64,000 nt of DNA, from contig OZ241842.1 in NCBI GenBank assembly GCA_965202675.1, positions 2,098,918-2,162,917 of the forward strand, read 5' to 3'. Positions within the stretch are counted from its first letter, which is position 1, and each line of letters starts with the position of its first letter. This DNA is from Candidatus Spongiisociaceae bacterium. GTDB lineage: Bacteria; Actinomycetota; Acidimicrobiia; Spongiisociales; Spongiisociaceae. The position numbers and the translations under genes are program-made. The notes beneath the pieces are model-generated. The model did not search any database. It worked only from the letters and a program-made list of their open reading frames with translations, and was not told the origin of the DNA. Below are positions 33,913 to 38,585 of the stretch, piece by piece.

Positions 33913-33989
33913 CGGGCAGTGGCGCAGCTTGGCAGCGCGCTTCGTTCGGGACGAAGAGGTCGCGGGTTCAAATCCCGCCTGCCCGACCA
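33913..33989 (+). tRNA. tRNA-Pro (anticodon CGG)
   Basis: Acceptor stem CGGGCAG/CTGCCCG, D arm GCGCAGCTTGGCAGCGC, anticodon arm CTTCG-TTCGGGA-CGAAG, T loop GGTTCAAATCC, encoded CCA. Confidence 0.97.
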
Positions 33990-34040
33990 ACACCCTCGCA
34001 ACATCCCCGCAGGAGCATAGGGCAAGCGCGGCGGCGGGTG

Positions 34041-35084
34041 TCAGACGACGCGGAGGCGGGTCCCGCCGCTCAGAAACGGGTTGTCGGATTTATCGGCGGC
34101 GTACCCCGATATCGCCGCTATTTCGGACTCGGTGAGGCCGCGGTCGAGCATGGCTCGGCCGATGTCCGATACCAGACGGGGTTTTTCCGGTGCCAGCTCA
34201 TCGCTGACCGGTTCATGGGTGCGCCAACCCAGGGCGCTGAACCTCTTGTACAGGTTGGTTCGTTGTTTGGCGGCGACCACTCCCAGGTGATATCCCCTTT
34301 CGATCAGCGCCTGCATCGACACCCCCCAGTAGCGCTTGAGATCATGGAGGCGGCCGGTGGTGAGGTTGCGCAGTTGGGGCCGTATCACCTCGGCCGGCAT
34401 CAGGAACTCGGCGGCGAAGGCCGTGGCGTCGGCCTCATAGTCATCCGGGACTCCCTGACCGTGAAGGCACAGGTGCCCCAGCTCGTGCGCGAGCGTCAAT
34501 CTCCGGCGGTCGGTCGGGAGCGCCTGGTTGAGCATCACCACCGGATAGGGGTTGTCCCCCCACTGCGACAGCCCGTCGACGCGCCTGGTGCCGAAGTCGC
34601 TGTCGAATACCAGACAACCTGCTGCTTCCATCCATCCGACCAGGTCGCGCACCGGTCCGGCCGGCAGCCGCCACTGGGCCCGCAGCAGGCGGGCCGCCGC
34701 GGCGGGGTAGACATCAAAGGGGTCAAACCAGGGGAGGGTCAGCTCGGCCTGCAGGTCTACCTCGTCCAATAGGTGTGCGGAATGGAGTCGATGGAGGTTG
34801 AGTTGGGCCTCGAGACGGCGCCATACGGTCGGACGGGCTGTCGCTCGTCGCCGCATGTGAGCGCCGCCGGCGAGTGCGCCCTCCATCCGCTTCGCTTTGC
34901 GCAGTAGCTCCGCTGTTACCCCCAACGCCGTTGCGATTTCTTCCAGCATGAGGTCGGTCGGCTCGCACAGGTCGTTCTCATGACGGGACAGAGCCGCCTG
35001 CGTTATACCCAGCCGCCCGGCGAGATCTTTCTGGGTCAGGCCGCCGGCCCGCCGCGCCGTGGCTATGGCCTCTCCCAGGCTCAC
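34041..35084 (-). CDS. Xre-HTH fused to ImmA/IrrE-family metallopeptidase
   Basis: N-terminal HTH (GLTQKDLAGRLGITQAALSRHEND), LAHELGH (HExxH), EADATAFAAEFLMP. Confidence 0.93.
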   Translation of the reverse strand: MSLGEAIATARRAGGLTQKDLAGRLGITQAALSRHENDLCEPTDLMLEEIATALGVTAELLRKAKRMEGALAGGAHMRRRATARPTVWRRLEAQLNLHRLHSAHLLDEVDLQAELTLPWFDPFDVYPAAAARLLRAQWRLPAGPVRDLVGWMEAAGCLVFDSDFGTRRVDGLSQWGDNPYPVVMLNQALPTDRRRLTLAHELGHLCLHGQGVPDDYEADATAFAAEFLMPAEVIRPQLRNLTTGRLHDLKRYWGVSMQALIERGYHLGVVAAKQRTNLYKRFSALGWRTHEPVSDELAPEKPRLVSDIGRAMLDRGLTESEIAAISGYAADKSDNPFLSGGTRLRVV

Positions 35085-35449
35085 CGTTGCCCTGCGGCAG
35101 ACGAGTCGGTGTCGTCATAGGGCAGTTTCACCTGGGGTCGGGCGGGCAGGGATGGGCCTTTAATGTCCACTACATCAAGGGAAGAAATGGATTCCTCCAG
35201 TTCGATGAGCCATATCACATTGTTCGCGCCGTCGCGAGTGTTTACGAGCGTCCGATTATGGAGTACCCACCCCGATTCCGTGGATACCTCTACCCCTCTC
35301 AGCCCGCACTCCCCCCTCAGTCCCGAAGAGCACATTAGTTCTCCGCTGAGCGGCAAGCCTGCGGTTGAGTCGCTCAACACCAGCGAGGTCCGTAGTAGGA
35401 TGGTCGACACGGTAAAGGATGTCTTAACCGAACACCCATGTGATAGCAA
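35081..35449 (-). pseudogene. Degenerate or truncated partner gene upstream of Xre-ImmA
   Basis: C-terminal TRDGANNVIWLIEL...PARPQVKL resembles partners I recall upstream of actinobacterial Xre-ImmA genes; the N-terminal part looks out of frame; GTGA overlap with Xre-ImmA. Confidence 0.45.
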
Positions 35450-36062
35450 GTAACATAGTTCCTATGAGAAGGAACATTATTGCTATCCGGAAAATAGCAG
35501 ACCGGGTTACTAAGGTATTTTCACCTGGTATAACATATTCTAAATAAGCTTGTGCTACTGCTAGTTTACGGGGAGGCTCGACATTACTAAGGAGTGTTAT
35601 ATCGATGGTTCCAAGCAGGTTTTTGGCCGCTACATTCGATGCAACTCCTAGAGCACCTATAAACAGGAACAAGATGGCAGAAATCAACAAAATGGTCCAA
35701 ATAATGGCGTTGTTGGATTCTGATTGGAGGATATCACTGAGGCGATTGACGGCAAAGAGTAATGCACCGAGAGCAGTGGTGAGTAAAAATTGGCTGCGGG
35801 TCTGAAGGTCTGTGAGTTGATTGCGTTGTCGTTCGAGTTGATACTTTCCTTGTTCGATCAGTAGTTCCAGCTCATCATGATCCCAACTTGCAAGGTCGCT
35901 GTGCTCTGTCGTTTGGGCATATTTCACAAACTGTGGAGTCATGCCAGGTCTAATAAGAGCTAAGCAATGATTAATGTACAATATAATACTGAGCTTAATA
36001 ATACTGAGCTTAATCCCTGTTAGCTCCTTCTTTGATCGTATATCATTCATGGCTATTTCCAT
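35424..36062 (-). CDS. Multi-TM membrane protein, Pycsar-effector-like architecture
   Basis: Helix QLERQRNQLTDLQTRSQFLL followed by hydrophobic segments, a loop and a C-terminal TM (FRIAIMFLLIGTMLLAITWVFG); AT-rich; overlaps both neighbours. Confidence 0.7.
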   Translation of the reverse strand: MEIAMNDIRSKKELTGIKLSIIKLSIILYINHCLALIRPGMTPQFVKYAQTTEHSDLASWDHDELELLIEQGKYQLERQRNQLTDLQTRSQFLLTTALGALLFAVNRLSDILQSESNNAIIWTILLISAILFLFIGALGVASNVAAKNLLGTIDITLLSNVEPPRKLAVAQAYLEYVIPGENTLVTRSAIFRIAIMFLLIGTMLLAITWVFG

Positions 36063-36972
36063 TCAACCATTCCGCGATCGCAACAGTGATTTCATGGGAC
36101 CGTTCGCCGAGGAACAACCATTGACCGCCCGGGTTAATATCAACAACCCAGGTAGTGTTACTGTCATCTATCCAGTCCTGGCTAGAGTATCCAACAGCTA
36201 ATTCTCTAGCAAGAGAAACTGCTAGTTTTTCTATTTCCATAGACTTAGTCCAGCGGAAATTGCTATGGGCATCGTTTAGGAAGCGCCAATCTATAGGCTC
36301 ACCTTCCACAACGGCGCGACTGAAACACCAGGACCGATCCCCAACCGTCACGACGCGCAGATGCCGAACAGCCTCAACACGATGTTGATATAGGAAGGGT
36401 TCAGGTTGAAGCTCAATATCAATTAGCTGAGACACATCGCTGGTGGGAGTCGAAACATAATCACTATCCGACAAAAAGCTAGACGGACCTATCGGTTTTG
36501 CTATTAGCTGGTCTGTTCCCAGGATTTCAGCCGCGATGGTTGGAGAACAAGCCAAAGCCGTCTCGGGACTCGCGGCGCCAACAGCCTGCGCCGCCTTCTT
36601 GAGCAACAACTTATTCTCCGCGATAAGGAGTCGATCAAGGTCGGTGAGCCAATCCACACTACTCGTACGTATGAAAGAAACGAGCATTGCCAGCCAATTC
36701 GCCTGTTGGTAAGCGCGACGGGTATGCGCTTCTGTTCCGAGCATCCATCCTGGAGGGGCCAATCGTCGGATCCAGCCGCGGCCCAACCCGCGTATGGACA
36801 TCCAACCATTCCGGCGTTTATGCAACGGTCCATCTACCGATAGAGCTAAGGAGTTGGTCTGCAGGGACTGGACATCAACCACCAACGGGCCGCTCACAAG
36901 GCTCGCTACTGCTGAGAAATGTGGGTCATCGGGCGCGCCGATGAGTACGCACCTCTGCCCTCTGTCATCCAC
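36043..36972 (-). CDS. ATP-grasp ligase, graspetide-synthetase (MvdC/MvdD-like) type
   Basis: AENKLLLKKAA, LIAKPIG, PFLYQHRVEAVRHLRVVTVGD, IDWR, DINPGGQWLFL; the GTG start overlaps the precursor stop by 1 nt (TAGTG). Confidence 0.85.
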   Translation of the reverse strand: MDDRGQRCVLIGAPDDPHFSAVASLVSGPLVVDVQSLQTNSLALSVDGPLHKRRNGWMSIRGLGRGWIRRLAPPGWMLGTEAHTRRAYQQANWLAMLVSFIRTSSVDWLTDLDRLLIAENKLLLKKAAQAVGAASPETALACSPTIAAEILGTDQLIAKPIGPSSFLSDSDYVSTPTSDVSQLIDIELQPEPFLYQHRVEAVRHLRVVTVGDRSWCFSRAVVEGEPIDWRFLNDAHSNFRWTKSMEIEKLAVSLARELAVGYSSQDWIDDSNTTWVVDINPGGQWLFLGERSHEITVAIAEWLNGNSHE

Positions 36973-37142
36973 TACGCGGGAGGAAGCACACCCAAGAACC
37001 ACATCAGGCGGTCATTGTCAATCGTTTCTATGGCGCGGGTCTCGAGGGTGCCTGGGCTTGGGATCGGCTTGGGGTCGGCTTCGCGAGGGGAGCGGACTCC
37101 TATGAGGTCGGTCAACCGCTGGACTCTGTCGCTATTAGGCAT
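36972..37142 (-). CDS. Putative graspetide (RiPP) precursor peptide, 56 aa
   Basis: AAAAGGAG RBS; MPNSDRVQRLTDLIGVRSPREADPKPIPSPGTLETRAIETIDNDRLMWFLGVLPPA; T-x-E-T-R-x-x-E-T-x-D-x-D core; directly upstream of the ATP-grasp gene. Confidence 0.78.
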   Translation of the reverse strand: MPNSDRVQRLTDLIGVRSPREADPKPIPSPGTLETRAIETIDNDRLMWFLGVLPPA

Positions 37143-37168
37143 GTCGCTCCTTTTCACGGTGCCAGGAT

Positions 37169-37177
37169 ATATTACCA
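37169..37177 (-). promoter_or_regulatory. Extended -10 promoter for the peptide/ATP-grasp operon
   Basis: TGGTAATAT (TGn plus TAATAT) about 27 bp upstream of the precursor ATG. Confidence 0.5.
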
Positions 37178-37302
37178 CAACGGACGCGGCATTGGGACAT
37201 ACACGGTGTCGGAGCTTGACAAAACTATCAGTATCCTTCTGGTAGAACGCGCAGTAGAATGAGGGCAAAGCGCGCGATAGAGTGTCGGGAGGGGTAGCTT
37301 TG

Positions 37303-38541
37303 ATGCGGGATCGTCATCTGGAGCGGGTGATCCGCGATGCGCTGGGTTCATTCCGGGTGGTGATGATCCAGGGCGCCCGCCAGACGGGCAAGACCACCCT
37401 GGCTCGGCGGATAGGCTCGTCCGGGACCTTCCTCGGGCTCGACGACGACGGGCTGTTACAGGCAGCCCGCGACGATCCGATCGGGCTCCTGGCCGAGATT
37501 CCCAGGCCCGTGGTGATAGACGAGGTGCAGCGGGCGGGCGACTCCTTGGTGCGAGCGATCAAGATGGCCGTGGACAGGGATCCGAAGCCGGGGGGATTCC
37601 TGCTGACCGGATCGGCCGACTTTCTGACCGTTCCCGTTATCAGCGAGTCCCTGGCCGGCCGGGTGGCGATATTCGAGCTGCACCCTTTCTCACAGGGCGA
37701 GGTCGAGGGCCGTGAGGAGGGGTTGCTGGGTCGGTTGTTCCGGGAGCCCGATTCCCTGCGGTCTGTTTCGGCTTCCGCATTGCCCGCCTCGGAATACGCC
37801 CGCCGCGTCTGTACGGGCGGGTACCCCGAGCCTCTGGAAATGGATGACCGCAACCGCCGCCGATGGTTCGACGCCTATGTGAACACGAGCGTTTCCCGCG
37901 ACGTGGCCGAGATCACGGGGGCGCGCCGAACCCGGGAGATGCCCCGGCTTCTCCGGTCGCTGGCCGCCCGCACCGCCAATGAACTGGTGGTGAGTGCGGT
38001 CCACAACGATATCGGCTTGGGCAGCATCAACACTACTTCCGACTACCTCGCCTACCTGGAGATGATCCGCCTCGTTGCGCTGCTGCCCGCCTGGTCCGCC
38101 AATCTGGGCGCCCGTGTGAAGCGCCGTCCCAAGGTCTACACATCAGACACCGGGCTCGCCGCTTCCCTCCTCGGAAAAGACCCGGTGGCGCTGGCCAGAC
38201 CCACCGACCGGGCCCGCGGCCAGATGTTCGAGACCTTTGCCGTCAACGAGCTGCGCCGTCAGGCGGGCTGGTCGGACCTCGGGGTGGACTTCTTCCATTA
38301 CCGGGACCGCAACGGCAGGGAGATCGACCTCGTTTGCGAAGCGCCCGACGGACGGGTCGCCGCCGTCGAGGTGAAGGCCTCCGCCACCGTCCGGCCCGGT
38401 CACGCCGCCCATATCGCCTGGTTGAGGGACAGGCTCGGCGACCGATTTACGGCGGGGGCGGTTTTCTACACCGGTTCCCTGTCACTGCCCCTCGGCGACC
38501 GAATCTCGGCGCTGCCTTTATCGGCTCTCTGGGAGGCGTAG
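37303..38541 (+). CDS. AAA_14 plus DUF4143 ATP-binding protein
   Basis: QGARQTGKTT, VIDEVQR, FLLTGSA, GGYPE, KRRPKVYTSDTGL, YRDRNGREIDLV...EVKAS. Confidence 0.9.
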   Translation: MRDRHLERVIRDALGSFRVVMIQGARQTGKTTLARRIGSSGTFLGLDDDGLLQAARDDPIGLLAEIPRPVVIDEVQRAGDSLVRAIKMAVDRDPKPGGFLLTGSADFLTVPVISESLAGRVAIFELHPFSQGEVEGREEGLLGRLFREPDSLRSVSASALPASEYARRVCTGGYPEPLEMDDRNRRRWFDAYVNTSVSRDVAEITGARRTREMPRLLRSLAARTANELVVSAVHNDIGLGSINTTSDYLAYLEMIRLVALLPAWSANLGARVKRRPKVYTSDTGLAASLLGKDPVALARPTDRARGQMFETFAVNELRRQAGWSDLGVDFFHYRDRNGREIDLVCEAPDGRVAAVEVKASATVRPGHAAHIAWLRDRLGDRFTAGAVFYTGSLSLPLGDRISALPLSALWEA

Positions 38542-38585
38542 TCGGTCACGATGAACCTGCCGACAGCGTTGGCCCGACCCGACTT

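What the first reader, a model, noticed from the sequence alone, without database searches (positions are those of the whole stretch)
34041..37142. Peptide, ATP-grasp, Pycsar-effector-like membrane protein and Xre-ImmA form one overlapping operon: candidate peptide-signalled defence system
Seen: five ORFs on one strand, each overlapping the next (1, 20, 26 and 4 bp), mostly AT-rich, next to tRNA-Pro. The membrane protein has an amphipathic helix (LTDLQTRSQFLL), hydrophobic segments, a loop and a C-terminal TM helix. Established: Pycsar/CBASS systems pair a signal-synthesising enzyme with a membrane cell-death effector of broadly this layout. Inference: a cyclised peptide could be the ligand, inhibitor or trigger of a membrane effector, giving an abortive-infection system, possibly controlled by the Xre-ImmA protease switch. 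I know of no described system with this composition.
Basis: inference. Interest (0 to 1): 0.78.

Follow-up and report, generated by a model that had tools for sequence, protein, structure and literature searches.

The report
Mobile peptide–ligase–membrane protein defence candidate
A horizontally acquired three-gene unit (a small peptide, the enzyme predicted to tie it into rings, and a membrane protein distantly related to a phage-defence cell-killing effector) is conserved across Actinomycetota and usually sits among mobile and anti-phage genes, which makes it a testable but unproven defence candidate; the neighbouring Xre-ImmA gene is a separate insertion.

Summary
The ORFs exist, but comparison splits the "five-gene operon" into two modules.

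**Core trio (minus strand):**
- 56-aa precursor, 37142-36972
- graspetide-type ATP-grasp, 36972-36043
- 208-212-aa membrane protein, 36062/36050-35424

The trio recurs across Actinomycetota. The membrane gene is present in 74 of 80 loci and a precursor is detected in 62 of 80. The precursor core is T-x2-T-x3-E-T-x-D-x-D.

The modelled ATP-grasp matches only graspetide macrocyclases at the top of a PDB fold search (E 1.8e-18). The membrane protein has no direct family hit. Its profile aligns end to end with Pfam PycTM proteins, the Pycsar effector family (hhalign 89.7%, E 1.8e-6; controls much lower).

Neighbouring genes are mostly integrases, transposases, Thoeris, Lamassu, Gabija-like and KAP or STAND NTPase genes. 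Both congeneric species have an empty site at tRNA-Pro.

**Second module.** Xre-ImmA is RmrA-like (E 7.5e-50). It and the small ORF upstream are a separate 1.35-kb insertion that a sister genome lacks. The "122-aa ORF" is an artefact built around an 84-aa ORF that is probably 5'-deleted.

**Verdict.** The PycTM-like partner and the defence setting hold; the Xre-ImmA control does not. No function has been tested. The main rival is an ordinary thuringinin-like graspetide cluster with an exporter or immunity protein.

The parts
33913..33989 (+). tRNA-Pro(CGG). It marks the edge of the island; in congeners the MTTB gene follows within 40 bp.
   Evidence: ARAGORN and Rfam. Empty sites are seen in L126 and L127.
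33990..38585 (.). A 4.6-kb island between tRNA-Pro and the MTTB gene. It holds three independent modules: the RmrA-like pair, the peptide/ATP-grasp/membrane trio, and a PDC-S01 ATPase.
   Evidence: Two same-genus species have CNNM, tRNA-Pro and MTTB adjacent with nothing in between. L001 has the trio and the ATPase but no Xre-ImmA.
34041..35084 (-). Xre-type HTH fused to an ImmA/IrrE (M78) peptidase, 347 aa, resembling RosmerTA RmrA. It is a separate module and not part of the trio.
   Evidence: Pfam HTH_3 at 4.7e-11 and Peptidase_M78 at 1.3e-19. PADLOC RmrA at 7.5e-50. It is absent from L001. In L090 it is paired with the small ORF at the same chromosomal site, at 333 of 348 identical residues.
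35081..35335 (-). An 84-aa ORF translationally coupled to Xre-ImmA through a GTGA overlap. It is probably a 5'-deleted remnant of a 106-aa partner gene. The 122-aa ORF 35449-35081 is an over-extension of it.
   Evidence: Gene callers call an identical 84-aa protein. The L090 homologue is 106 aa, and the window lacks about 185 nt, including that gene's start. There is no family hit in any library.
35424..36062 (-). Membrane protein of 212 aa, or 208 aa from the ATG at 36050. It has an N-terminal hydrophobic helix, a long amphipathic helix running into TM1, then TM2, a cytosolic helical segment and TM3. It is a remote relative of PycTM (PF18967).
   Evidence: AlphaFold2 model with pLDDT 91.3 and pTM 0.83. 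hhalign of A2 against A3 gave 89.7% and E 1.8e-6, with controls. PycTM models matched 13 times across the 39 members scanned (three models), best E 0.003. There is no direct Pfam hit and no PDB or BFVD fold match. A homologue is present in 74 of 80 loci.
35983..36012 (.). A perfect 15-nt tandem duplication inside the membrane gene. It is in frame and adds IKLSI to the N-terminal helix.
   Evidence: the repeat finder family D7. Homologues carry a single copy.
36043..36972 (-). ATP-grasp ligase of the graspetide macrocyclase type, 309 aa. Its nucleotide and Mg motifs are intact (K159, D278-x-N280-P-G-G-Q-W).
   Evidence: NCBIfam TIGR04187 at 2.4e-20, MvdC at 2.6e-13 and MvdD at 2.4e-8, all below the family cut-offs. 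PDB sequence hits to PruB, AMdnB and MdnB at about 1e-9. AlphaFold2 pLDDT 88.9. The top 25 Foldseek matches are all graspetide ligases, led by CdnC 7mgv at E 1.8e-18 with TM 0.75. Invariant columns are listed.
36972..37142 (-). Precursor peptide gene of 56 aa, with AAGGAG 6 nt upstream of the ATG. The leader motif RLTDLI corresponds to LYxxL in relatives, and the C-terminal tail WFLGVLPPA is hydrophobic.
   Evidence: Sequence. Orthologues in L001 and L003-L005. The family HMM finds it beside the ATP-grasp in 62 of 80 loci.
37008..37052 (-). Predicted core GTLETRAIETIDNDR. The conserved residues are Thr32, Thr35, Glu39, Thr40, Asp42 and Asp44, matching the family consensus T-x2-T-x3-E-T-x-D-x-D.
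   Evidence: Column frequencies over 137 distinct cores: T 67%, T 81%, T 90%, D 88%, D 75%. The cross-links themselves are inferred.
37143..37281 (.). A 139-bp divergent intergenic region between the precursor gene and the PDC-S01 ATPase gene. It is the likely promoter region; TGgTAATAT lies about 25 nt before the ribosome-binding site.
   Evidence: Read from the sequence. The consensus scan found nothing above chance, so this is inference only.
37282..38541 (+). AAA_14/DUF4143 ATPase of 419 aa, a PADLOC candidate defence gene (PDC-S01). It neighbours the trio here and in L001.
   Evidence: Pfam AAA_14 at 6.6e-20 and DUF4143 at 1.2e-40. PADLOC PDC-S01 at 1.2e-148. Also present in L001.

Best explanation
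The real unit is a self-contained, horizontally mobile three-gene cassette. It consists of one or more small precursor peptides, a graspetide-type ATP-grasp ligase, and a small membrane protein of the PycTM (Pycsar effector) superfamily.

**Shown**
- The three genes are inherited together across Actinomycetota.
- The ligase has the fold and motifs of peptide macrocyclases.
- The precursor carries a strongly conserved Thr/Glu/Asp core.
- The cassette lies in variable islands rich in mobile and anti-phage genes.
- In this genome it sits in a 4.6-kb tRNA-Pro island that congeners lack.

**Inferred mechanism**
1. The ligase uses ATP to join Thr hydroxyls to Asp/Glu carboxylates of the core. Nested ester rings such as T32-D44 and T35-D42 are likely.
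2. The cross-linked peptide stays in the producer cell. No exporter or leader protease is linked to the cassette.
3. The peptide binds the conserved cytosolic juxtamembrane helices of the PycTM-like protein and controls it.
4. The peptide either holds a membrane-damaging effector shut, so that infection or loss of the cassette releases it, or opens it when infection switches on or unmasks cyclisation.
5. Either way the cassette would work as an abortive-infection or addiction-type conflict module. A ribosomal cyclised peptide would play the part that cCMP or cUMP plays in Pycsar.

Xre-ImmA plus its truncated upstream ORF is a separate RosmerTA-like module that landed between the cassette and tRNA-Pro.
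For: **Linkage.** A membrane homologue lies directly beside the ATP-grasp in 74 of 80 genomes. A precursor is detected in 62 of 80, with up to four genes per locus and multi-core precursors. Ligase and membrane-protein identities correlate at r 0.87; none of 999 Mantel permutations reached the observed value.

**Ligase.** TIGR04187, MvdC and MvdD hits. PDB sequence hits. The top 25 Foldseek matches are all graspetide macrocyclases. Catalytic columns are invariant.

**Membrane protein.**
- hhalign against 17 Actinomycetota PycTM proteins, 15 of which hit PF18967: 89.7%, E 1.8e-6, spanning the whole PycTM domain.
- Controls: reversed profiles scored 19, and block shuffles averaged 19.8 with a maximum of 29.7, against 44.6 for the real comparison.
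- PycTM was the only PADLOC family that recurred in member-by-member scans.
- The most conserved polar residues lie in the juxtamembrane helices, not in the membrane-spanning helices.

**Context.**
- Eight annotated loci: Thoeris next door, an integrase (33), NB-ARC (34), serine recombinase/HEPN/PemK (35), SNF2/AAA_15/Fic/RelA_SpoT (12), M78/MazG/SNF2-DUF1156 (13), insertion sequences (11) and PDC-S01 (10).
- The immediate neighbours of 70 loci are topped by integrase, DDE transposases, HTH_17, ThsA, KAP NTPase, ResIII, UvrD and N6_Mtase, and by ThsA, PifA, QatA, LmuA, GajB and PDC-S28 in PADLOC.
- Distribution is patchy: of 41 genomes (own plus 40 relatives) only the window's own has a strong match (E 5.7e-128); two same-family genomes give weak ATP-grasp matches (E 1e-21 to 1e-30) with no membrane homologue nearby.
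- Congeners have an empty site.
- Cassette GC is lower than its flanks.

**Other points.**
- A Streptomyces/Frankia subclade carries an EcsC-family glycine-zipper protein in place of the PycTM-like one, beside NACHT and STAND genes.
- No protease or transporter recurs among the neighbours.
- Xre-ImmA is separate.
Against: - Nothing has been tested at the bench.
- The PycTM link rests on profile-profile comparison only. Direct HMM hits are absent or insignificant (Pfam none; PADLOC E 0.33). No solved or viral structure matches. Helical membrane proteins are prone to spurious profile matches.
- The neighbour analysis has no matched control set. Accessory biosynthetic and bacteriocin loci also collect in genomic islands.
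- Multi-copy and multi-core precursors are the hallmark of secreted protease-inhibitor graspetides such as plesiocin and thuringinin. Thuringinin loci are already known to carry an uncharacterised membrane protein, which Makarova et al. read as a transporter (PMC8939145).
- Ester-cross-linked peptides are typically stable, which fits poorly with a labile-antitoxin role.
- Neither the ATP-grasp nor the precursor matches any PADLOC model, and the membrane protein gives only weak PycTM hits, so PADLOC does not recognise the trio.
Confidence: 0.5

Rival explanations
1. This is an ordinary graspetide natural-product cluster of the thuringinin-like kind. The ligase makes a cross-linked peptide, probably a protease inhibitor, that acts outside the cell. 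The membrane protein exports it or protects the producer. The island location only reflects horizontal transfer of an accessory biosynthetic cassette.
For: - The ligase fold and motifs are those of graspetide macrocyclases.
- The precursor has a conserved Thr/Asp/Glu core, with several precursor genes and multi-core precursors as in plesiocin and thuringinin.
- All characterised graspetides are protease inhibitors. Thuringinin loci carry an uncharacterised membrane protein that has been proposed to be a transporter (PMC8939145).
- Minimal clusters without a protease or ABC transporter are common among graspetide groups (PMC13097080).
Against: - The partner aligns with a cell-killing effector family, not with any transporter family.
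- A three-helix protein of about 200 aa is an unlikely peptide exporter.
- No leader peptidase or cleavage motif is linked to the cassette.
- The neighbours are overwhelmingly mobile and defence genes rather than biosynthetic or regulatory genes.
- In one subclade the partner is replaced by a different small membrane-active protein, a pattern typical of effector swapping.
Confidence: 0.33
2. This is the first reader's model: all five ORFs form one operon, and the Xre-ImmA protease switch controls a peptide-signalled membrane effector.
For: The ORFs are co-directional with overlapping or closely spaced reading frames, and no terminator was recognised between the membrane gene and the small ORF. 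Read-through transcription is possible in this genome.
Against: - The sister genome L001 has the trio at the same site without window 35344-33993.
- L090 carries the small ORF and Xre-ImmA as a pair of their own.
- None of the other annotated contexts has an adjoining fused Xre-ImmA. L005 has separate HTH and M78 genes two genes away.
- Peptidase_M78 is not among the recurrent neighbours.
- GC content differs between the two parts.
- Xre-ImmA matches RosmerTA RmrA.
Confidence: 0.04
3. The cassette is a toxin-antitoxin-like addiction module that only stabilises the island. The PycTM-like protein is the toxin and the ligase-matured peptide neutralises it. It has no role against phages.
For: - The three genes are tightly co-inherited.
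- The cassette is carried by islands, one large plasmid and one predicted viral contig.
- It sits next to other toxin-antitoxin-type modules.
Against: - Many toxin-antitoxin modules in such islands turn out to defend against phages, so this rival is hard to separate from the best explanation.
- The cassette is rare on plasmids: 1 of 72,556 records has a full-length match.
- A stable cross-linked peptide is an odd antitoxin.
Confidence: 0.1

Closest known systems
Thuringinin-type graspetide loci (Bacillus thuringiensis TgnA/TgnB; omega-ester peptide groups 3, 5 and 6 of Lee et al. 2020; precursor cluster 13 plus membrane-protein cluster 18 of Makarova et al. 2022, PMC8939145)
   Same: - A precursor (often with repeated cores), a single ATP-grasp and an uncharacterised membrane protein, with no dedicated transporter or protease.
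- A Thr...Thr...Glu/Asp...Asp arrangement in the core that fits nested ester rings.
   Different: - This family is a distinct Actinomycetota lineage. Its invariant ligase motifs and ETIDN or ETVDN cores do not occur in the held supplementary text of that census.
- Homology of its membrane protein to cluster 18 could not be tested here.
- The partner had previously been read as a transporter, not as a relative of a defence effector.
Pycsar (pyrimidine cyclase system for anti-phage resistance): PycC cyclase plus PycTM effector (Pfam PF18967)
   Same: - A small membrane protein with an amphipathic helix, TM1, TM2, a cytosolic helical segment and TM3. It aligns profile-to-profile over the whole PycTM domain.
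- A compact module in which an enzyme is paired with a membrane protein, located in defence islands.
   Different: - There is no nucleotide cyclase. The enzyme is an ATP-grasp peptide ligase and the presumed ligand is a ribosomal peptide.
- The membrane protein has about 55 extra N-terminal residues.
- It does not reach any PycTM model threshold directly.
RosmerTA (RmrT toxin / RmrA antitoxin; PADLOC models)
   Same: The window's Xre-ImmA protein matches RmrA models over its full length (E 7.5e-50). It follows a small, translationally coupled upstream gene, as in toxin-then-antitoxin operons.
   Different: - The upstream ORF matches no RmrT or other model, and appears 5'-deleted in this genome.
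- This resemblance applies only to the inserted module, not to the trio.
Structurally characterised graspetide macrocyclases: CdnC (7mgv), PruB (9bou), MdnC/MdnB (5ig9/5ig8), AMdnB (7m4s), PsnB (7drm)
   Same: The fold matches (TM up to 0.75, E down to 1.8e-18), including the N-terminal pre-ATP-grasp region that binds leader peptides in those enzymes.
   Different: Identity is only 12-22%, scores fall below every NCBIfam family cut-off, and the core motif and partner differ.

Membership tests
Graspetide (ATP-grasp-modified RiPP) gene cluster | An ATP-grasp ligase of the MdnC/PsnB macrocyclase clade | tested here: met
   TIGR04187 at 2.4e-20, MvdC at 2.6e-13 and MvdD at 2.4e-8, all as sub-threshold relatives. 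PDB sequence hits at about 1e-9. The top 25 Foldseek matches are all graspetide ligases, ranking ahead of RimK.
Graspetide (ATP-grasp-modified RiPP) gene cluster | An adjacent small precursor with conserved Thr/Ser donors and Asp/Glu acceptors, plus a leader motif | tested here: met
   A 56-aa ORF with the core GTLETRAIETIDNDR. The family consensus is T-x2-T-x3-E-T-x-D-x-D and the leader motif is LYxxL (RLTDLI here). A precursor is present in 62 of 80 loci.
Graspetide (ATP-grasp-modified RiPP) gene cluster | Side-chain macrolactone or macrolactam cross-links actually installed | not testable with these tools
   This needs mass spectrometry of the co-expressed precursor and ligase.
Thuringinin branch (groups 3/5/6) with its cluster-18 membrane protein | Repeated-core precursors with a Thr/Glu/Asp hairpin motif | tested here: met
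   Single ORFs with 2-3 core repeats occur in L031, L038, L045, L059, L064, L068 and L077. The window's own precursor has one core.
Thuringinin branch (groups 3/5/6) with its cluster-18 membrane protein | Ligase and membrane protein homologous to TgnB and the cluster-18 proteins | not testable with these tools
   No thuringinin-locus sequence could be fetched. The motifs of this family are absent from the held supplements of PMC8939145.
Pycsar | An effector belonging to PycTM (PF18967 or the PADLOC PycTM models) | tested here: inconclusive
   Direct scans gave no Pfam hit and PADLOC E 0.33. PycTM models matched 13 times across the 39 family members scanned (three models), best E 0.003. Profile-profile comparison gave 89.7% and E 1.8e-6 with clean controls. 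This indicates a remote relative, not a family member by threshold.
Pycsar | A pyrimidine cyclase (PycC) encoded next to the effector | tested here: not met
   No cyclase is present in the island or in any of the annotated loci. The only enzyme is the ATP-grasp.
RosmerTA | An RmrA antitoxin (Xre HTH plus M78 peptidase) | tested here: met
   14 RmrA models matched, the best at 7.5e-50 over residues 6-316.
RosmerTA | A recognisable RmrT toxin upstream | tested here: not met
   The upstream ORF has no PADLOC, Pfam, NCBIfam or PHROG hit. It lacks the N-terminal part seen in L090.
   Xre-ImmA is absent from syntenic L001. It is not among the recurrent neighbours of 70 loci. It forms its own pair in L090.

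The most novel reading that the evidence does not exclude
The trio would be a new class of abortive-infection system in which a ribosomally made peptide, cyclised by an ATP-grasp enzyme, replaces the cyclic-nucleotide second messenger of Pycsar and CBASS. The ligase would act as the infection-responsive signal generator, or as the continuously required keeper. The cross-linked peptide would gate a PycTM-superfamily membrane effector, which is exchangeable for an EcsC-type protein in some lineages. Related peptide, ATP-grasp and membrane-protein trios in other phyla may work in the same way.
Probability: 0.25. Interest if true: 0.88.

Novelty: new variant of a known kind. Interest (0 to 1): 0.66.

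Why it matters
**If the defence reading is right.** This would be the first immune module in which post-translational cyclisation of a gene-encoded peptide controls a membrane effector. It would join two fields that have not met, RiPP biosynthesis and anti-phage signalling. It would also give a function to the unexplained membrane protein that accompanies several graspetide families.

The system is small (about 1.7 kb), has clear catalytic and core residues to mutate, and has members in culturable Streptomyces, Glutamicibacter, Microbacterium, Rhodococcus and Nocardioides. It can therefore be tested directly.

**If the natural-product reading is right.** The cassette still defines an apparently uncatalogued, phylum-wide graspetide family with a very strongly conserved core.

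**For annotation.** The result separates a RosmerTA-like insertion from the cassette. It also shows that the tRNA-Pro site is a strain-variable landing pad for defence-type modules.

Tried and rejected
**Searches that found nothing**
- Direct family searches of the membrane protein, the precursor and the small ORF in Pfam, NCBIfam and PHROGs gave nothing significant; PADLOC gave only a PycTM hit at E 0.33 for the membrane protein.
- Foldseek of the membrane model against PDB and BFVD gave nothing below E 0.15. The NINJ1 and SLATT rows are not significant.
- tblastn of the ligase against phage records found nothing, and only one plasmid matched.
- IMG/VR gave one contig with the full trio.
- Promoter, terminator and Rfam scans of the island were uninformative.

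**Literature**
- No paper links PycTM with ATP-grasp, and none contains ETIDND.
- The family's motifs are absent from the held supplements of Makarova 2022 and Carter 2026, though some files were cut.
- I could not assign the family to a numbered RODEO graspetide group. Searches for thuringinin and OEP details and for Iyer 2009 led nowhere.

**Unavailable**

**Readings considered and rejected**
- The 122-aa ORF as a gene.
- Xre-ImmA as part of the system.
- The cassette as a pseudogenised relic. All three frames are intact and the 15-nt duplication is in frame.
- A true Pycsar system, because there is no cyclase.

Full report
**1. What is in the window**

- **Precursor peptide.** 56 codons, 37142-36972, with AAGGAG 6 nt before the ATG.
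- **ATP-grasp.** 309 codons. Its GTG start at 36972 shares one base with the peptide's TAG stop.
- **Membrane protein.** 36062-35424. The second ATG at 36050 is the start most homologues use.
- **TTG ORF.** 35449-35081.
- **Xre-ImmA.** 347 codons, 35084-34041, starting in a GTGA overlap.

GC falls to 0.43-0.58 over the peptide-to-membrane stretch against about 0.70 around it. Xre-ImmA is at 0.63-0.67.

**2. Two modules, not one operon**

- A sister metagenomic genome (L001) aligns with the window at 92-97% on both sides. It lacks window 35344-33993, which is most of the TTG ORF plus Xre-ImmA. In L001 the membrane gene is followed directly by the spacer and tRNA-Pro.
- A third relative (L090) has Xre-ImmA next to the same CNNM and tRNA-Pro genes, at 333 of 348 identical residues. 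There it is preceded by a 106-aa ORF.
- Against that copy, the window lacks about 185 nt, including the ORF's start and N-terminal half. The 84-aa product that gene callers take from ATG 35335 is therefore probably a remnant. The 122-aa ORF is an over-extension into the 3' end of the membrane gene.
- Xre-ImmA has HTH_3 and Peptidase_M78 domains. It matches 14 PADLOC RmrA models over its full length, the best at E 7.5e-50. Its upstream ORF matches nothing. It is therefore a RosmerTA-like pair with an unrecognised and here truncated partner.
- Two species of the same genus have CNNM, tRNA-Pro and MTTB adjacent with fewer than 40 bp after the tRNA.

Window 33990-38585 is thus a 4.6-kb strain-variable island made of three independent modules: the RmrA-like pair, the trio, and the PDC-S01 ATPase (E 1.2e-148).

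**3. The trio is a conserved unit**

- *Ligase family size.* The ATP-grasp has 377 or more relatives in the protein collection. It has relatives in 222 species genomes, and the best 80 are nearly all from Actinomycetota: Acidimicrobiia, Thermoleophilia and Actinomycetes.
- *Precursor.* An HMM of the peptide finds precursor genes right beside the ligase in 62 of 80 loci. They lie upstream, or in Streptomyces after the membrane gene. There are often 2-4 copies, and some single ORFs carry 2-3 core repeats.
- *Core motif.* The consensus over 137 distinct cores is (G/P)-x-T-x-x-T-x-x-x-E-T-(I/V)-D-N-D-R. It is preceded by a short LYxxL leader motif and followed by a short hydrophobic tail. In the window the core is GTLETRAIETIDNDR.
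- *Membrane partner.* A homologue of the membrane protein sits next to the ligase in 74 of 80 loci. Pairwise identities of the two proteins correlate at r 0.87, and none of 999 Mantel permutations reached that value.
- *Partner swap.* Of the six loci without it, four (L008, L019, L020, L036: Streptomyces and Frankia) form a subclade, joined by the Streptomyces plasmid locus L119, that carries an EcsC-family glycine-zipper protein instead (PF12787, E 3.9e-8). On the Streptomyces plasmid this lies beside NACHT and AAA_16/TPR STAND genes. The other two (L082, L083) are a truncated and a weak match.

**4. The enzyme**

- NCBIfam places it nearest the RiPP ATP-grasp maturases: TIGR04187 at 2.4e-20, MvdC at 2.6e-13 and MvdD at 2.4e-8. 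All are far below the family cut-offs.
- phmmer against PDB finds PruB, AMdnB and MdnB at about 1e-9.
- A confident model (pLDDT 88.9, pTM 0.87) has only graspetide macrocyclases as its top 25 PDB matches: CdnC, PruB, MdnC/B, AMdnB and PsnB. E values run from 1.8e-18 to about 5e-13 and TM reaches 0.75. RimK ranks below them.
- The lysine of the AKP(I/L)GP strand and the D-x-N-P-G-G-Q-W motif are invariant.

The enzyme is a peptide macrocyclase by every test available here. The rings themselves are inferred.

**5. The membrane protein**

- *Direct searches.* There is no significant direct hit in Pfam, NCBIfam or PHROGs. No fold match appears in PDB or BFVD.
- *Model.* The model is confident (pLDDT 91.3, pTM 0.83). 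It shows a hydrophobic N-terminal helix, a long helix whose amphipathic first half runs into TM1, then TM2, a cytosolic helical segment, and a long helix ending in TM3.
- *Conserved motifs.* The best-conserved motifs, LLIEEGRRQLDRQ...IR.RAQ and GE.T.ATR.TVFR.A, lie in the juxtamembrane parts.
- *Member-by-member scan.* Among the 39 members, PycTM was the only recurrent PADLOC family. It gave 13 hits over three models, the best at E 0.003.
- *Reference set.* I collected PycTM proteins from 20 of 301 Actinomycetota genomes. Fifteen of the 17 used hit Pfam PF18967.
- *Profile comparison.* hhalign gave 89.7% probability, E 1.8e-6, and 137 collinear columns covering the whole PycTM domain.
- *Controls.* Reversed profiles scored 19. 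Thirty block-shuffles averaged 19.8 with a maximum of 29.7, against 44.6 for the real comparison.

I read this as probable remote homology, not membership. The family is small: 434 clusters at 50% identity among 1.84 billion representatives. Every named member is annotated as a hypothetical protein.

**6. Context**

*Eight annotated loci:*
- Thoeris ThsA/ThsB next door
- a tyrosine integrase and helicases
- NB-ARC STAND proteins
- serine recombinase, relaxase, HEPN and PemK
- SNF2, AAA_15/AAA_21, Fic, DUF488 and RelA_SpoT
- HTH/M78, MazG and SNF2-DUF1156
- IS110 and ISL3, the latter inserted between two precursor copies
- PDC-S01

*Immediate neighbours.* I took the nearest called gene on each side of 70 loci, 136 proteins in all.
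- The commonest Pfam families are Phage_integrase (5), HTH_31 (5), DDE transposases (4 and 3), HTH_3 (4), HTH_17 (4), ThsA_Macro (3), KAP_NTPase (3), AAA_19 (3), ResIII (3), UvrD, primase/Toprim, the ABC-3C CTD6 domain and N6_Mtase.
- The commonest PADLOC families are ThsA, PifA, QatA, PDC-S28, LmuA, GajB and an RT-helicase.
- No protease, ABC transporter or biosynthetic family recurs.
- No matched control set was run, so "enriched" rests on general knowledge of how rare such genes are.

*Distribution.*
- Among 41 genomes (own plus 40 relatives), only the window's own gives a strong match (E 5.7e-128); two same-family genomes give weak ATP-grasp matches without the membrane partner.
- Cassette GC is below its flanks in 19 loci and above in 1, at a cut-off of 0.03.
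- One 708-kb Streptomyces plasmid carries the EcsC-partner variant and one IMG/VR contig carries the full trio. No deposited phage genome does.

**7. Literature**

- Makarova et al. 2022 (PMC8939145) note that all characterised graspetides are protease inhibitors. They also note that thuringinin-type loci carry an uncharacterised membrane protein, cluster 18, which they suggest is a transporter. A second membrane family, cluster 40, is left unexplained.
- Carter et al. 2026 (PMC13097080) list 43 graspetide groups. Several have partners without any HMM. Their co-occurrence table shows integrase, relaxase, AAA_15 and PcrA-type helicases beside groups 4 and 10.
- The motifs of this family (NPGGQWLF, SSQDWI, ETIDN, ETVDN) do not occur in the held supplementary text of either paper, though some files were cut.
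- No paper in the library combines PycTM with ATP-grasp, or describes an ATP-grasp-based defence system.
- Earlier notes of this scan describe analogous trios of other graspetide families in other phyla, with the same weak PycTM resemblance. These are leads that agree with my result, not independent evidence.

**8. Interpretation**

*Shown:*
- a mobile, co-inherited trio of precursor, macrocyclase and membrane protein
- a probable PycTM-superfamily partner
- a setting in mobile and defence islands
- Xre-ImmA as a separate module

*Inferred:*
- The ligase installs nested Thr-to-Asp/Glu esters.
- The product stays in the cell and controls the membrane protein.
- The cassette therefore acts as an abortive-infection or addiction-type module. 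I put this at about 0.5.

The main rival, at about 0.33, is a conventional thuringinin-like graspetide cluster whose membrane protein exports the peptide or protects the producer. Multi-core precursors and the precedent of protease-inhibitor graspetides favour it. The nature of the partner, its replacement by another small membrane-active protein, the lack of processing and export genes, and the neighbourhood favour the conflict reading.

**9. Verdict**

- As chemistry, the cassette is a new, apparently uncatalogued member of the graspetide world.
- As a system, pairing it with a PycTM-like protein in defence islands is a new variant of a known kind. It is worth a bench test.

Noticed in passing
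window 35983-36012: A perfect 15-nt tandem duplication (ATAATACTGAGCTTA, twice) lies inside the membrane gene. It adds an in-frame IKLSI to the N-terminal helix, and close homologues carry one copy. It is probably a recent slippage event; its effect is unknown.
   Followed up: partly
window 35081-35335 versus L090:182-502: The small ORF upstream of Xre-ImmA is 106 aa in L090. In the window about 185 nt are missing, including its start and N-terminal half, and sequence that is non-coding in L090 supplies a new start. This looks like a decayed toxin partner beside an intact RmrA-like antitoxin.
   Followed up: partly
window 33990-38585; L126:1573-1687; L127:1431-1524: Both same-genus species have tRNA-Pro followed within 40 bp by the MTTB gene. 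The tRNA-Pro 3' side is therefore a strain-variable landing site. It holds one to three defence-type modules in different relatives (L001, L090, window).
   Followed up: yes
window 37282-38541: The AAA_14/DUF4143 ATPase matches the PADLOC candidate defence gene PDC-S01 at E 1.2e-148. It is transcribed divergently from the precursor gene and accompanies the trio in L001 as well.
   Followed up: partly
L008, L019, L020, L036; L119:8156-8704: A Streptomyces/Frankia subclade of the same ATP-grasp and precursor family carries an EcsC-family glycine-zipper protein in place of the PycTM-like protein. On the Streptomyces sp. NBC_00015 plasmid it sits between a NACHT protein and an AAA_16/TPR/LuxR STAND protein.
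   Followed up: partly
L003:4047-6001: An ISL3 transposase is inserted between two precursor gene copies, separating one copy from the ATP-grasp.
   Followed up: no
PMC13097080, supplementary file 111 (Table S4): Other graspetide groups also co-occur with mobile or defence-type genes. Group 10 co-occurs with AAA_15, PcrA helicase, integrase and relaxase. Group 4 co-occurs with integrase, DUF4238, DUF2971 and Tn7-like genes. The authors read such neighbours as self-resistance genes; a link between graspetide cassettes and defence islands may be general.
   Followed up: no
L130:7616-9589 (IMGVR_UViG_2814123535_000003): One predicted viral contig of 52.7 kb carries the complete trio near its end. 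This could be prophage cargo or host DNA at a prophage boundary.
   Followed up: partly
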